From the human T2T-CHM13v2.0 reference genome, Homo sapiens: a stretch of 64,000 nucleotides of DNA. Made by a program: the position numbers and the translations under genes. The stretch lies in NCBI RefSeq assembly GCF_009914755.1, contig NC_060943.1. One strand, 5' to 3'. Under the pieces are notes generated by a model that saw only the letters and a program-made list of their open reading frames with translations, was not told where the DNA came from and ran no database searches. Shown here in pieces: positions 7,015 through 64,000 of the stretch. Positions within the stretch are counted from its first letter, which is position 1. Each line of letters starts with the position of its first letter.

Positions 7015-7306
7015 CACTGCTTTCCATTTTTAAGGTCTTTATCTAGAATTAGAATTGCTGGATCACATGACAATTTTATTTTTAATTTTTTTTGGAAACC
7101 TTCAGACCATTTTCCAGAATGACTGCATCATACCACATTCCCATCAGCAGTGCAGAAGGGTTCCAATTTCTCCAAATCCTGCCAATATTTCTTACATTGT
7201 GTTTTATGGATAGTAGCCATGTTAATGAAAGTGAGGTGGTTTCTTATTGCAAAGATGATGATCTTTTAAATTTTTTCAGTCGTAATTGCTTAATAATAGA
7301 ATGTGT

Positions 7307-7645
7307 GGCTGGACACGGTGGCTCATGTCTGTAATCCCAGCACTTTGGGAGGCCCAGGCGGGCATATCATGAGGTCAGGAGATCGAGACCATCCTGGCTA
7401 GCACGGTGAAACCCCGTCTCTACTAAAAATACAAAACAAAGAAAAAAAAATTAGCCAGGCGTGGTGGCAGGCGCCTGTAGTCCCAGCTACTTGGGAGGCT
7501 GAGGCAGGAGAATGGTGTAACCCGGGAGGTTGAGCTTGCAGTGAGCCGAGATCGTGCCACTGTACTTCCAGCCTGGAGGACAGAGCGAGACTCTGTCTCA
7601 AAATAAATAAATAAATAAATAAATAAATAAATAAATAATAATAAT
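7307..7645 (+). mobile_element. AluY with (TAAA)n tail
   Basis: Full dimer; aataatagaatgtgtg flanks both sides. Confidence 0.95.
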
Positions 7646-7649
7646 AATA

Positions 7650-8110
7650 GAATGTGTGTGCCTGCTGGGCATTCTATACCTTCTCAAATATTGGCATCAG
7701 ACTGGACTATGCCACCCGCACTTCCTCATCCTTGTTGATTTTCGTGGGTTTGATTCACAGCAAACACTGCCAACCCAGCATCACAAAGCATGATGTTATC
7801 AAAGGAAGTGTAGAGAGATCTTAGGCTGAAACTGTGGAACCCTGGAGGTGGAGGTTCATGTGTGTCAGATGTCTAATACTGCTACGCGTCCCTAAAATTG
7901 AAAGAATCAGGGTACCTGGGCTGACAGTTGCAGCTGTGGGGATAGAGAGGCAGAAAAGCAGGAGGTGTTCATTGGAGGGGGAGAGAACGGAAGAGCTCCC
8001 CTGGTCGCCTAGCAACGCGGAGACGCCCCACAGGGGACTCTGGTGAGAACAGGCAGTGGCAGAGGGACTATTCTGCCTCAGCCAAATGTAGCTGCAGAGA
8101 CTCAGGAAAG
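7650..8110 (+). promoter_or_regulatory. Module B copy 1, RFX X-box-like GTCGCCTAGCAAC at 8004-8016
   Basis: Homologous to modules at 18.4k, 25.7k, 38.7k, 46.7k, 53.8k; motif resembles the 13-bp X-box. Confidence 0.5.
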
Positions 8111-8221
8111 TAATGTAGATGTAGAAATTAGAAATTAATTAATTTCTTTAATTAATAACCCTCAGTTGTATATTGAGACGGTCTCCACTGATTTTTTCAT
8201 GTCTACCGTTTGCATAGTTTT

Positions 8222-9305
8222 AGGCCAGTAGTTCCCAAAATGTAGTTTAAGGACTCCTGGGGGAATCAAGACCCTTTCTGGGGGTCCATAATTCCCAACA
8301 TTTTCCTAAGAAAATTAAGAATTTACTTGGCTACCGACTTTTCAATTTATCTGCATGATGTAATACTGCAAATGTTTAAGTGGCAGATTTGAGAATCTAG
8401 CTGTCTTGTACTAAGGCGAACATTAAAGAAATTTGCAAAAAAGGCCGGGTGCAGTGGCTCACGCCTGTAGTCCCAGCACTTTGGGAGGCCGAGGCGGGCG
8501 GATCACAAGGTCAGGAGTTTGAGACCAGCTTGGCCAATATGGTGAAACCCCGTCTCTACTAAAAATACAAAAATTAGCTGGGTGTGGTGGCGGGCACTCG
8601 TAGTCCCAGCTACTCGGGAGGCTGAGGCAGGAGAATCGCTTGAACCCGGCAGGCTGAGGTTGCAGTGAGCTGAGATCGCGCCACTGCACTCCAGCCTGGC
8701 GACAGAGCGAGACGCCGTCTCAAAAAAACAAAACAAAACAAACAAAAAAACCCAAACCCTCAGTTGTATATTCCCAAACCCATCCTCAGTGGAGACGGTC
8801 TCCACTGATTTTTTCATGTCTACTGTTTGCATATTTTTAGGCCAGTAGTTCCCAAAATGTAGTTTAAGGACTCCTGAGGGAATCAAGACCCTTTTGGGGG
8901 TCCATAATTCCCAGCATTTTCCTAAGAAAATTAAGAATTTACTTGCCTACCGACTTTTCAATTTACCTGCATGATGTAATACTGCAAATGTTTGAATTAA
9001 GTGGCAGATTGGAGAACCTAGCTGTCTTGTAGTAAGGTGAACATTAAAGAAATTTGCAAACATGTAAGACAATGCTAATTTTCTTACTAATTCTTTGGAA
9101 AATACTGTATAATTGCCTATAAAAATTGTGAAATGTTAATATATAATAAGATTATTATTTTTAAGTTTTAAGTGTATAATTTTCTCAGCTTCAATATGTA
9201 ATTGTATGTAAATATAGATCATACAAAGAAAAAATTTTAGGGGTTCTCAATATATTTAAAAAATATAAAATTGGCCTGAGATGAAAAACTTTAAGAATTA
9301 CTTTC
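8222..9305 (+). mobile_element. Charlie1-family hAT deletion derivative (cassette component; also ~18920, 26380, 39230, 46965, 54400)
   Basis: cagtagttcccaaaatgtagt...gaccctttctgggggtcc 5' end and acattaaagaaatttgcaaa...gagatgaaaaactttaagaatt 3' end resemble Charlie1. Confidence 0.65.
8443..8752 (+). mobile_element. AluS flanked by a ~285-bp direct duplication
   Basis: Full dimer; 8157-8440 repeats at 8757-9060. Confidence 0.95.
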
Positions 9306-9580
9306 TTAGGTTAAGTTTTTAGATATCAGCTGGCTGGGTGGAAGGAATGTGCATACTCGGTGCTTTTCATACACGGTGTCAAATTCCCATGAAGCTATCC
9401 AGTTGTTCCGTGGCTCTAAATTCTCATGGGAAATGTAACCCAGATCTGTCTCGCTGTTATCAATTTTTCACGCTGCCTACCATAATTAACCCAGTGAAGA
9501 ATTTCAGTGAAAGGTAGATTGAGCTATTTGTACCCAGCCTTCCAGAGAATTCCCTTTATATAGGATAAGTTTAAATTCTT
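9305..9580 (+). promoter_or_regulatory. Module F copy 1, ZNF143/THAP11-like motif TTCTCATGGGAAATGTAACC (9421-9440)
   Basis: Motif conserved at 43344, 47552 and 58736; reverse complement resembles ACTACAnnTCCCA. Confidence 0.45.
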
Positions 9581-9929
9581 TTTGGGGGGCCGGCGGGGGT
9601 GGGGGTGGTGGTGTCTGGAAAGGAGGATCATAGGATAAGTTTAACATTCTTAGATGAGAAAGTCAAATGTAGATTCCTGAGTTCACAAACCCCAGCCCCA
9701 ACATTCATGATGTGGGTGATCCTGGGGAAGACATCTGTCCTTCTGAGCCCACCTCCTTCACTTAGAAATGGGCACTGGGGGTGGGGAAGGATTGGACCTG
9801 GTGCCCCCCAAGACATTGTAAGAATCAAGAAATAGTAGCTAGGTGGGGGTTTTTGGGCATTTCTACCATAAATATGAAATATAATTTTATTTTAATAATG
9901 TGACAAATAAGATAAAGAGTCATCTTCTT

Positions 9930-61924: not shown

Positions 61925-62140
61925 TGTTAGTGTTCTTCCACCTCAGCATCATAGAAAATTTGGGCTGGAATGTTCTTTTATGCAGGATGGAGGAGGCCGT
62001 CCTGATTTTCTAGGGTGTTTGTCAGCATCCCTGCCTGCTACCCAGGGATGCTGGGTTCTCTTCAGTTGTGACCCCAAATGTTTATCCAAACTTGCCAAAT
62101 GTCTCCTATGGGCAAAATACCCCTGGTTGGGAACCACAGA
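61925..62140. mobile_element. MER20-like element (cassette component; also ~50835-51000)
   Basis: cacctcagcatc...tttgggctgg...gtcagcatccctg...ttgccaaatgtctcc...ggttgggaacca. Confidence 0.65.
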
Positions 62141-62249
62141 TTACAATACACATAACATTCACCTGTAAATTAGCGGGAAGTAATATTGGTGAGGATGACA
62201 GTTCACACCCACAGAGGACTAAGATCACAAAGAGTAAGGGTTTCGTGAG

Positions 62250-62740
62250 GATCTATGCACCAACCCTGTCTGTCATTTTCTGTAATTCTGATCCATGACA
62301 TCTGGGACCTTGCTGACTCCACAGGGATGATCTTGCCAGGTCTTGCCTATTCCGAAAGACAGCAGTCAGTTTCCTTGAGAGGGAGCCTTTCACGTGGAAA
62401 TGAATCCAGAGCCCACACCCCAACCAGCTTCTATGGAGCTGTCACACTCAGGGCCACTGTGACCTGCCCTGTCACCCAGGGCCATAACCATGGACAGCCA
62501 TGGGCTCTGCCCAGAGCCACTGAAATTATTCCAGGTAGTCAATCCTGAGCCTGCTCGTTTTGTCTCCCTTGTTTTTTCCTTCAGAAACCATAAGGAAGGC
62601 TCTTTGCCCACATGCTCCCCCATGAGCTTCTGCCTCTTGACAGACACTGGGGCTTCCCCTGCGGCCCCTCTTGGCCTGGTGTGCCCCCTCCTCTTGTGAA
62701 TGTCACAAGCTATTTTTGTTTTAGTGACAGTCATTTCCTA
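62250..62740 (+). mobile_element. MER74-like LTR
   Basis: gacatctgggaccttgctgac...aatccagagcccacacccc...ctgaaattattcc. Confidence 0.75.
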
Positions 62741-62744
62741 CTCT

Positions 62745-63044
62745 TTTTTTATTTTGTTTTGAGATGGAGGGAGTCTCGCTCTGTCGCCCAGGCTGGAGTG
62801 CAATGGCGCGATCTCGGCTCGCAACCTCCGCCTCCTGAGTTCGAACAATTCTCCTTCCTCAGCCTCCCAAGGAGCTGATATTACAGGCGCCAGCCACCAC
62901 ACTAGCTAATTTTTTTGTATTTTTAGTAGAGATAGGGTTTCATCATGTTGGCCAGGCTAGTCTTGAATTCCTGACCTCAAGCGATGTGCCCGCCTCAGCC
63001 TCCCAAAGTGCTTGGATTACAGGCGTGAGTCACTGCACCTGGCC
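62745..63044 (-). mobile_element. AluS
   Basis: Antisense dimer. Confidence 0.93.
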
Positions 63045-63199
63045 CTCCTGTTCTCTTTAATTGTTTTGTGTGAAACTTTGTGATGCAGGGAATTGCTTCC
63101 CGCAAGAATTCCTAAATTCCATTTTGTGAGAGTCCTTCAAAACCCAGAGGCATTTTCTCATACTACGTGTGTGTGTATGTGTGTGTGTGTGTGTGATTG

Positions 63200-63720
63200 A
63201 AGGGGAATTGGGAGATGACTCTTGAGTCTCAGGTCATTTACTTGCCCCATATTTACCTTATTGGGACCCTCCCTAAACCCAAACACCTAATCTCAAGGCT
63301 ACAGCAAGGCAGCAGCCCTGAAATCTCTCCTCTGGGAGGTACCAGCACCCAGCTGCTTGGATGCTCAGAGGCAGGATGGGAGCAGGTGACGGGGGTGTGG
63401 GCTTGGGACCAGACAGCCTGGAGACCTCCCCTCTGTGAGCCCACCATCCTCCTTTGTAAAATGCAGACACTCCTAGGACCTCGCTCACAGCCAGGGCTGC
63501 TGGGGATGGCTGTTTATGTTGTACCCTGCACTAGGGTCCTGTCCAAGGCAAGGGGAAAAATGTGAAACCCAGCCTGCTCTCCGCAGCTGTGTCCATGCAG
63601 AGCTGAGGGATTATTTTCAGGCATCCCACTGATCTATCCCACTTCCCACAGCCCACCCTGTACATAGGCACAGCCAGTGTAATTTGGGAAAAACTCATTT
63701 TAAACAAACAAAAAAATGTC
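63200..63720 (+). repeat. Module A copy 5, preceded by (GT)n at 63167-63195
   Basis: tgtaaaatgcagacactcctaggacctcgctcacagccagggctgctggggatgg. Confidence 0.85.
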
Positions 63721-64000
63721 CCAGCCAATACAACATACCCCTTTAAAAAGTACATTATTGTGTTTTTCTTTTCATTTGAAGCAATGTCTATGACATTGCA
63801 ACGTATATATAACTTAATATTTAACATTTTAACCATATTTAATTGTACAGTTCCCATATTAGGTGCATTCACATTGTTTTACTATGATCTCCGTTGTTCA
63901 TCTCCAATATTCTTTTCATCTTGAAAAACTGAAACTCTGTACCCACAAACAACTCCCTACTTCTCCCTCACACCTGTCCCTAACATCCACTTTCTTTCTT

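What the first reader, a model, noticed from the sequence alone, without database searches (positions are those of the whole stretch)
7020..64000. Hidden ancient tandem array of a non-coding regulatory cassette
Seen: once Alus and young L1/LTRs are ignored, the same modules recur head-to-tail in fixed order: A (14.7k, 21.0k, 36.4k, 51.0k, 63.3k), CTCF-like site, B (7.8k, 18.5k, 25.9k, 38.9k, 46.7k, 54.0k), Charlie1, F, MIR, exon C, D, B-prime, MER20, MER74. Copies are clearly diverged and share no Alu at equivalent positions, so amplification predates most Alu activity. The cassette carries no coding exon, yet short TF-like motifs and splice sites look better conserved than their flanks. Inference: a serially duplicated promoter/enhancer/insulator/exon unit. 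It could be an array of alternative non-coding 5' ends for a downstream plus-strand gene or lncRNA, resembling repeated-exon transcripts of imprinted domains. Standard repeat masking and >90%-identity segmental-duplication tracks would hide it. Locus guess, low confidence: chr19q13.4, e.g. the PEG3/MIMT1-USP29 interval.
Basis: partly seen in the sequence, partly recalled or inferred. Interest (0 to 1): 0.85.

Follow-up and report, generated by a model that had tools for sequence, protein, structure and literature searches.

The report
Ancient seven-unit non-coding tandem array
Between ZNF835 and ZIM2/PEG3 on human chromosome 19 lies a real but heavily decayed head-to-tail array of seven copies of a roughly 6-7 kb non-coding unit, which looks mostly like a neutral relic of an old duplication burst rather than a working regulatory machine.

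Summary
After masking Alus, the window holds 148 direct against 20 inverted self-matches. With flanks fetched from the same genome, the array runs from about 7.0 kb to 87.8 kb in window coordinates. It has seven units and ends at the truncated olfactory-receptor pseudogene OR5AH1P.

Modules A, B-body, C and D/Dx occur nowhere else in the 3.1-Gb genome. Old interspersed-repeat fragments sit at fixed places between them.

Trees are star-like: terminal branches are about 0.14-0.26 substitutions per site and internal branches at most 0.05. This fits one burst, at or before the oldest local Alus, with no later homogenisation.

No coding relic was found in any Pfam-scanned shared module (about 1.1 kb of small segments unscanned), no Rfam family, and no CpG island inside the units.

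Unique modules are about as diverged as co-duplicated repeat fragments. Only two short islands stand out weakly: the donor site of a 71-nt exon, kept in 5 of 5 copies, and a 20-mer in A. A CTCF-like motif recurs in the same orientation in six units.

Best reading: a largely neutral relic with incidental lncRNA exon use. The promoter or 5'-end array idea is not supported.

The parts
7040..64000 (+). Part of the tandem array inside the window. The whole array runs from about 7040 to about 87804 in window coordinates (chr19:59,775,040-59,855,804 of T2T-CHM13) and has seven units in head-to-tail order: pB-B-Bt-Cpre-C-D-Dx(B')-A-A2-P.
14556..15185 (+). Module A, copy V1. Other copies: 20824-21425, 36215-36883, 51009-51368 and 63115-63786; outside the window, 74995-75666 and 87129-87695. 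A is unique to this locus.
36215..36883 (+). Module A, copy V3 (the reference copy). It lies inside the terminal exon 36070-36987 of LOC105372473.
15455..15469 (+). CTCF-like motif just 3' of A. Paralogous copies, all on the + strand: 22016-22030, 36912-36926 and 52541-52555; outside the window, 75715-75729 and 87719-87733.
38650..39391 (+). Module B (reference copy). Other copies: 7642-8377, 18352-19087, 25649-26542 and 53809-54493; outside the window, 66680-67212, 78075-78567 and 85343-85738. The body is unique to this locus.
33468..33642 (+). Second, B-like core (B') inside Dx. Other copies: 46666-47135, 49978-50188 and 60854-61050; outside the window, 73497-73673.
28216..28660 (+). Module C (reference copy), carrying lncRNA exon 28554-28623. 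Other copies: 10238-10495 (exon 10392-10462), 43996-44683 and 59043-59413; outside the window, 80589-80958. C is unique to this locus.
32444..33937 (+). Modules D plus Dx (reference copy). D copies: 19515-19705, 45831-46053 and 59506-59830. Dx copies: 48396-50461 and 60140-61339; outside the window, 73276-73970, 81393-83604 and 85551-86043. Both are unique to this locus.
37566..38036 (+). Co-duplicated interspersed repeat P, with thousands of copies genome-wide. Paralogous copies: 16333-16737, 23686-23999, 52739-53098 and 63807-63995; outside the window, 64440-64657 and 76815-77253.
38392..38607 (+). Co-duplicated interspersed repeat pB (about 200 bp) in front of B. Other copies: 7040-7245, 16803-16961 and 25426-25594.
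31899..32383 (+). Interspersed repeat TE1 (about 485 bp), present in only two units. The second copy is 47725-48200. The shared flanks show it was duplicated with them.

Best explanation
The region is the decayed product of a burst of tandem segmental duplication, most simply by unequal crossing-over between misaligned copies. A non-coding unit of about 6-7 kb already carried some old interspersed repeats. It was amplified to seven head-to-tail copies between what are now ZNF835 and OR5AH1P/ZIM2.

Shown:
- The array, its limits and its uniqueness in the genome.
- The absence of coding relics in the Pfam-scanned shared modules and of known RNA families in the window.
- The star-like tree.
- Every Alu in it being younger than the duplication.

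Inferred:
- After the burst the copies were never homogenised and have drifted apart at about the neutral rate.
- Alus, L1 pieces and minisatellites then stretched the units to 6-15 kb.
- A transcript that starts at the ZNF835 CpG island now splices onto leftover splice-site-like sequences in some units. This gives lncRNA models with paralogous exons.
- The age is about 60-100 million years. It rests on the units being about twice as diverged per copy as the median local Alu, and on a recalled neutral rate.

On this reading the array has no function that depends on its repeated design.
For: (1) Uniqueness: 7 of 7 genome hits of A, 8 of 8 candidates of D/Dx and 4 of 4 of C lie in the array, all on the + strand.

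(2) Trees: ML trees of A (7 copies), B (8) and Dx (6) have terminal branches of 0.14-0.26 and internal branches of 0.009-0.047. None of the 12 inner branches is well supported.

(3) Divergence: mean pairwise K2P is uniform. A 0.382, B 0.374, C 0.387, D 0.378, Dx 0.41-0.42. Co-duplicated repeat fragments give pB 0.398 and P 0.465.

(4) Repeats present in only two units (TE1, the one after C, the one in A2) are as far from each other as from unrelated copies. The shared branch is 0 to 0.02, which fits a short burst.

(5) Alus: 28 local Alus have a median non-CpG divergence of 0.095 per copy (range 0.04-0.19), against about 0.19 for the units.

(6) Coding: six-frame Pfam scans covered at least one copy of all shared modules except about 1.1 kb of short segments, on both strands. 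They gave only an L1 reverse-transcriptase piece and chance-level hits. The neighbouring OR5AH1P fragment still scores 60.7 bits.

(7) RNA: Rfam gave 0 hits at gathering score. Of 212 sub-threshold hits, the 150 listed were to SRP/Alu-type and simple-repeat-type miRNA families.

(8) Promoters: no CpG island lies in the units outside Alus.

(9) The Dx exon has its splice sites in one copy only.
Against: - Two short islands are better kept than 95% of shuffled maxima. One is a 20-mer in A, reached by 13 of 500 shuffles. The other is the donor site of exon C, reached by 22 of 500, and it coincides with an annotated splice site.
- The donor GT is kept in 5 of 5 copies and the acceptor AG in 3 of 5.
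- The CTCF-like motif is kept in six units in one orientation. Its identity is 0.77 against 0.62 in the flanks, although 5.9% of local 15-column windows do as well.
- A and B are somewhat less diverged than repeat P (0.38 against 0.47).
- Paralogue comparison alone cannot exclude weak constraint. No other mammalian genome, expression data or chromatin data could be consulted.
Confidence: 0.6

Rival explanations
1. Working repeated cassette. Each unit keeps a same-orientation CTCF-type site and a short exon with a strong donor. The array would then act as a multi-site insulator or loop anchor at the ZIM2-side edge of the PEG3 imprinted domain, or as a set of repeated exons (possibly alternative first exons) of a non-coding transcript.
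For: - Six + strand CTCF-like motifs lie at paralogous places in locus-specific DNA.
- The exon-C donor is kept in 5 of 5 copies and is the best-conserved 20-mer of module C.
- The acceptor is kept less well (3 of 5), as expected if only donors mattered.
- RefSeq models splice two paralogous exons (hub annotation).
- The minus-strand lncRNA model begins at about 85401, inside a B-like copy (hub annotation).
Against: - Significance is marginal and partly post hoc (13 and 22 of 500 shuffles; 5.9% of local windows).
- Four of the six motifs differ from the recalled consensus at 2 or 3 positions.
- There is no CpG island in the units.
- The plus-strand model starts outside the array.
- Divergence is near that of co-duplicated repeats.
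- RefSeq lists no functional element here (hub annotation).
- None of my five paper searches found a description of the array.
Confidence: 0.2
2. Relic of a receptor-gene cluster (olfactory or vomeronasal) or a zinc-finger gene cluster. Each unit once held a gene, and the coding exons have since decayed or been lost.
For: - The array ends directly at OR5AH1P, on the same strand. Only the last third of that receptor survives (7tm_4 profile 178-279 of 280, E 2.6e-16).
- A review of the Peg3 domain says its flanks hold olfactory and vomeronasal receptor families with lineage-specific expansions and deletions (PMC4196374, passages read).
- The unit size is in the range I recall for such clusters.
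Against: - No 7tm_4, V1R, 7tm_3, KRAB or zf-C2H2 hit at E<=1 in the scanned copy of the shared modules, in all six frames. About 1.1 kb of the 5.6 kb of shared sequence lacking a scanned partner was left unscanned.
- The OR5AH1P fragment next door is still easily recognised.
- No copy of the receptor fragment's flanks recurs in the units.
Confidence: 0.12
3. Chance clustering of ordinary interspersed repeats that merely mimics an array.
For: Several modules (P, pB, TE1, and the repeats after C and in A2) are interspersed repeats with thousands of genomic candidates.
Against: - A, the B body, C, D and Dx have no copies elsewhere in the genome.
- Inside the array 289 HSPs are direct against 23 inverted; the flanks have 1 direct and 5 inverted.
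- The order is collinear over 39 chained HSPs.
Confidence: 0.01

Closest known systems
Old tandem segmental duplications of the chromosome 19 gene-cluster regions (zinc-finger, olfactory and vomeronasal receptor clusters)
   Same: Head-to-tail copies of kilobase-scale units made in place. Pre-existing repeats are carried along, and younger Alu and L1 insertions are private to each copy. The array sits in the flank of the PEG3 domain that a review describes as evolutionarily dynamic (PMC4196374).
   Different: No gene or gene relic was detected in the unit. Identity of 62-79% is far below the 90% cut-off that, as I recall, is usual for segmental-duplication tracks.
Macrosatellites such as D4Z4 and DXZ4 (recalled from general knowledge)
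   Same: Kilobase-scale tandem units. DXZ4 is known for CTCF binding in each unit, and here a CTCF-like motif recurs once per unit.
   Different: Macrosatellite units are nearly identical through ongoing homogenisation, and their copy number varies. Here the units differ by about 30%, the tree is star-like, and the units vary from 6 to 15 kb.
Repeated-unit non-coding host genes of imprinted domains (SNORD116/115 host, C19MC; recalled)
   Same: Tandem units that each give an exon of a long non-coding transcript, near an imprinted domain on 19q13.4.
   Different: Those units carry a snoRNA or miRNA as payload. Here Rfam finds none at gathering score, and the sub-threshold hits listed are all to Alu-type or simple-repeat-type families.
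Variable-first-exon arrays (protocadherin, UGT1A type; recalled)
   Same: A repeated cassette with an exon whose donor is kept better than its acceptor, with a CTCF-type site per unit.
   Different: The exon has no open reading frame, the units have no CpG-island promoter, and no constant exons are known. The annotated transcript uses the exons internally.

Membership tests
Diverged tandem segmental duplication | Several collinear head-to-tail copies in one orientation | tested here: met
   289 direct against 23 inverted HSPs inside the array. The best chain joins 39 HSPs. Seven A copies are all on the + strand.
Diverged tandem segmental duplication | Unit sequence is not an interspersed repeat (its copies are confined to the locus) | tested here: met
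   A: 7 of 7 hits in the array. D/Dx: 8 of 8 candidates. C: 4 of 4 candidates. The B body hits only the array, apart from one weak hit on chr1.
Diverged tandem segmental duplication | Older repeats are shared at the same relative place, and younger ones are private to single copies | tested here: met
   P and pB are shared by most units. Alus are more alike than their flanks, and those upstream of pB sit at shifted insertion points.
Macrosatellite | High identity between units through homogenisation | tested here: not met
   Pairwise K2P is 0.24-0.59. Terminal branches are 0.14-0.26 and internal branches at most 0.047.
Macrosatellite | Copy number varies between people | not testable with these tools
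   Only one human assembly was on hand.
Small-RNA host array of imprinted domains | A snoRNA or miRNA in each unit | tested here: not met
   Rfam gave 0 matches at gathering score. The 150 sub-threshold matches listed, of 212, are to Alu-type or simple-repeat-type families. Only the window was scanned, not the 24 kb beyond it.
Variable-first-exon array | A promoter in each unit | tested here: inconclusive
   No CpG island lies in the units outside Alus. Promoters without CpG islands cannot be excluded, and no CAGE data were on hand.
Variable-first-exon array | Exon with a conserved donor joined to shared downstream exons | tested here: inconclusive
   The donor GT is kept in 5 of 5 copies. No constant exons are known, and the RefSeq model uses the exons internally.
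Receptor or zinc-finger gene cluster relic | A recognisable coding-exon relic in the units | tested here: not met
   Six-frame Pfam scans of one or more copies of the shared modules gave no receptor or zinc-finger family at E<=1. About 1.1 kb of short shared segments was not scanned.
CTCF-site cluster or domain boundary | Several CTCF motifs in one orientation | tested here: met
   Six + strand matches lie at paralogous places, with 1 to 3 mismatches to a consensus recalled from memory.
CTCF-site cluster or domain boundary | CTCF occupancy and boundary activity | not testable with these tools
   No ChIP or Hi-C data were on hand. The two Peg3-domain papers I read passages of (PMC4196374, PMC5526879) did not describe this array or CTCF sites in this interval.

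The most novel reading that the evidence does not exclude
The seven units are kept as a working set. Six same-orientation CTCF-type sites spaced 6-23 kb apart would form the centromere-side loop anchor or insulator of the PEG3/ZIM2 imprinted domain. The conserved-donor exons would mark a transcript that runs through the array from the ZNF835 promoter. That would make this a diverged, non-homogenised counterpart of a CTCF-binding macrosatellite.
Probability: 0.12. Interest if true: 0.6.

Novelty: new member of a known kind. Interest (0 to 1): 0.3.

Why it matters
The result shows that a reader without tools can find a cryptic array that, as I recall, repeat masking and tracks limited to at least 90% identity would not show. 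It also fixes the array's true extent: 81 kb and seven units, ending at OR5AH1P.

For biology, the array adds a dated example of a single duplication burst that was never homogenised, in the unstable flank of the PEG3 imprinted domain. It also explains why two predicted lncRNA exons are paralogues.

It would matter more if the six CTCF-like sites prove to be bound, because they sit where a boundary of the imprinted domain might be expected. As it stands, most of the evidence points to a neutral relic.

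Tried and rejected
- Coding relics. Pfam scans of six-frame translations, with stops read as X, covered 7600-20900, 23690-26650, 30700-34950, 30000-30710, 61360-62330, and outside the window 74140-75720, 84001-84880 and 86220-87130, plus the + frames of 87000-89400. 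Hits were one L1 reverse-transcriptase piece (32 bits), OR5AH1P, and one NADH5_C hit below its cut-off; the rest were at chance level. One search found 5.6 kb of shared segments with no scanned partner. I scanned the larger ones (about 4.5 kb). About 1.1 kb in ten short segments was left unscanned.
- Module A as the missing front of the olfactory receptor. I rejected this because no 7tm_4 hit appears in any + frame upstream of the fragment or in copy V1.
- Known RNA families. None were found.
- CpG-island promoters in the units. None were found.
- Shared Alus as a sign of a young array. I rejected this.
- A stepwise duplication history from distance matrices. Sister pairs disagree between modules, and trees are unresolved.
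- Papers. The searches were ZNF835+ZIM2+tandem (0 papers), the two LOC names (1 unrelated abstract), OR5AH1P (2 unrelated), PEG3/ZIM2/olfactory/Zim1/tandem (12 listed), and PEG3/ZIM2/CTCF/boundary (8 listed). Passages of two papers were read, and neither describes the array.
- Repeat-family names could not be assigned because no repeat library was available.

Full report
**The observation.**
- I aligned the window against itself.
- 49 segments of at least 100 bp matched ten or more other places. Sub-threshold Rfam hits to SRP RNA and to Alu-derived miRNA families mark Alu-derived sequence across the window.
- After masking 17,035 bases, 148 direct HSPs (43,113 aligned bases) remained against 20 inverted (4,022) at 62-79% identity. 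All began at about 7.0 kb.
C, D and Dx lie between them in a fixed order.
- The best collinear chain joins 39 HSPs at an offset of about 12 kb.

**Extent.**
- The whole genome that holds the window could be searched.
- Module A (598 bases) has 7 matches in 3.1 Gb. All lie on chr19 within 59,782,556-59,855,635 and all are on the + strand. Two of them lie beyond the window.
- I fetched 10 kb before and 40 kb after the window and repeated the self-alignment. It gave 313 direct HSPs (93.3 kb) against 33 inverted.
- Counting pairs at least 1.5 kb apart, 289 direct and 23 inverted lie inside 7-88 kb. The 33 kb of flanks hold 1 direct (48 bp) and 5 inverted.
- The array therefore spans about 81 kb (window 7040 to about 87804).
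- 45.7 kb of it lies in direct paralogous matches, and 23.2 kb is Alu-like or other high-copy sequence.

**Anatomy.**
- Copies of each module give seven units with the order pB-B-Bt-Cpre-C-D-Dx (holding a second B-like core)-A-A2-P.
- A-to-A spacings are 6.3, 15.4, 14.8, 12.1, 11.9 and 12.1 kb.
- Some units lack parts. The second lacks C and Dx, and the fourth has an extra partial B'-Dx block.
- Genome-wide searches separate two kinds of module.
- Locus-specific modules:
  - A.
  - The body of B (one weak chr1 hit apart).
  - C (4 of 4 candidates).
  - D and Dx (8 of 8 candidates).
  - The first 95 bases after A.
- Interspersed repeats with hundreds to thousands of candidates:
  - P.
  - pB.
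  - A repeat of about 262 bp after C, in two units.
  - TE1, about 485 bp, in two units.
  - A repeat in A2, in two units.
- I could not name these families.

**The right end.**
- The last unit stops after A and the start of A2-P. A partial Alu follows, then OR5AH1P.
- Only the last third of that receptor is present (7tm_4 profile 178-279 of 280, E 2.6e-16, about 88027-88326).
- Both array ends abut Alus, so the original junctions are lost.

**Age and mode.**
- Mean pairwise K2P distances are A 0.382, B 0.374, C 0.387, D 0.378 and Dx 0.41-0.42.
- ML trees of A, B and Dx are star-like. Terminal branches are 0.14-0.26 and internal branches 0.009-0.047. None of the 12 inner branches is well supported.
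- Sister pairs suggested by distances differ between modules.
- For the three repeats found in only two units, I compared each array copy with 20 unrelated genomic copies, without building a consensus.
  - The two array copies are as far from each other (0.289, 0.374, 0.376) as the sum of their own ages (0.283, 0.419, 0.406).
  - Each repeat was therefore copied soon after it landed.
  - The 20 copies were the best-scoring ones, which may bias these ages.
- TE1's shared flanks show that it was duplicated and not inserted twice.
- All this fits one short burst.
- 28 local Alus have a median non-CpG age of 0.095 per copy (range 0.04-0.19), against about 0.19 for the units.
- Where Alus lie near equivalent places in different units, they are more alike than their flanks. 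Their insertion points, as judged from blast coordinates, differ by tens of bases for the cluster upstream of pB. The V0 and V1 Alus after B fall in the same alignment column.
- Taking from memory a human-lineage neutral divergence of about 0.17 since the human-mouse ancestor, the burst falls at roughly 60-100 million years. This is a rough figure.

**Tests of content.**
- Pfam scans in six frames, with stops read as X, covered at least one copy of the shared modules, apart from about 1.1 kb of short segments.
  - They found no receptor, zinc-finger or other gene family.
  - The hits were one L1 reverse-transcriptase fragment, one NADH5_C hit below its cut-off, and otherwise chance-level hits.
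- Rfam found nothing at gathering score.
- No CpG island lies in the array outside Alus. The nearest are at the ZNF835/LOC105372473 start (-2549 to -2099) and the ZIM2-AS1 start (92151-92551).

**Tests of constraint.**
- Co-duplicated repeat fragments serve as a neutral yardstick. pB gives 0.398 and P 0.465, against 0.37-0.42 for the unique modules.
- A 20-column sliding-window test against column shuffles gave two marginal peaks.
  - A 20-mer in A at about 14885, reached by 13 of 500 shuffles.
  - The donor site of exon C at about 10457, reached by 22 of 500.
  - There was no peak in B (76 of 500) or in D+Dx (250 of 500).
- Exon C is real in the RefSeq models. Exons 10392-10462 and 28554-28623 are paralogues. 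The donor GT is kept in 5 of 5 copies and the acceptor AG in 3 of 5.
- The other array exon, 33062-33197, has AG and GT in its own copy only.
- A CTCF-like motif follows A in six units, always on the + strand, with 1-3 mismatches to a recalled consensus.
  - Its columns are 0.77 identical against 0.62 in the flanks.
  - However, 5.9% of local windows do as well.

**Reading.**
- Most evidence fits a neutral relic of one duplication burst, with later incidental exon use (confidence 0.6).
- A working CTCF and exon cassette is not excluded (0.2).
- A decayed receptor-gene cluster is unlikely (0.12).
- A chance cluster of repeats is refuted.

**What is in print.**
- Five searches found no description of the array.
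- A review of the Peg3 domain (PMC4196374, passages read) says the flanks of the domain hold olfactory and vomeronasal receptor families that expand and shrink by lineage. This fits the setting.
- Supplements were not consulted.

**What stays open.** Cross-species conservation, CTCF binding, transcription start sites and copy-number variation could not be tested here.

Noticed in passing
window 17703-17834, minus strand: A weak Pfam hit to the C-terminus of mitochondrial NADH dehydrogenase subunit 5 (25 bits, E 1.6e-5, below the 28.2-bit cut-off). It may be a small mitochondrial insert between two Alus.
   Followed up: no
window 14112-14624, 34058-34404, 50377-50717: Three minisatellites: 62 bp x 8, 69 bp x 5 at 93% matches, and 84 bp x 4 at 95%. 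Each lies between Dx and A in a different unit, and their repeat units appear unrelated. The first resembles the 5' edge of module A.
   Followed up: partly
window 8175-8439 and 8792-9060: A young 265-bp direct duplication (94% identical) flanks an Alu at 8442-8749 inside the first unit.
   Followed up: partly
window 6702-7017, 25036-25315, 38069-38371, 53201-53412: Four units each have an Alu just upstream of pB. By blast coordinates the insertion points differ by tens of bases. This looks like a local Alu insertion hot spot at the junction of repeats P and pB.
   Followed up: partly
L010:4027-4326 (window 88027-88326): OR5AH1P keeps only the last third of an olfactory receptor. The break coincides with a partial Alu, which suggests a deletion that also removed the true right edge of the array.
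   Followed up: partly
window 15316-15356, minus strand: One exon of the predicted lncRNA LOC105372472 overlaps a high-copy, Alu-like segment (15189-15345). It looks like an exonised antisense Alu.
   Followed up: no
window 22915-23527: A long AT/TG-rich simple repeat (8 and 26 bp periods) draws many sub-threshold miRNA-family hits. These appear to be artefacts of low complexity.
   Followed up: no
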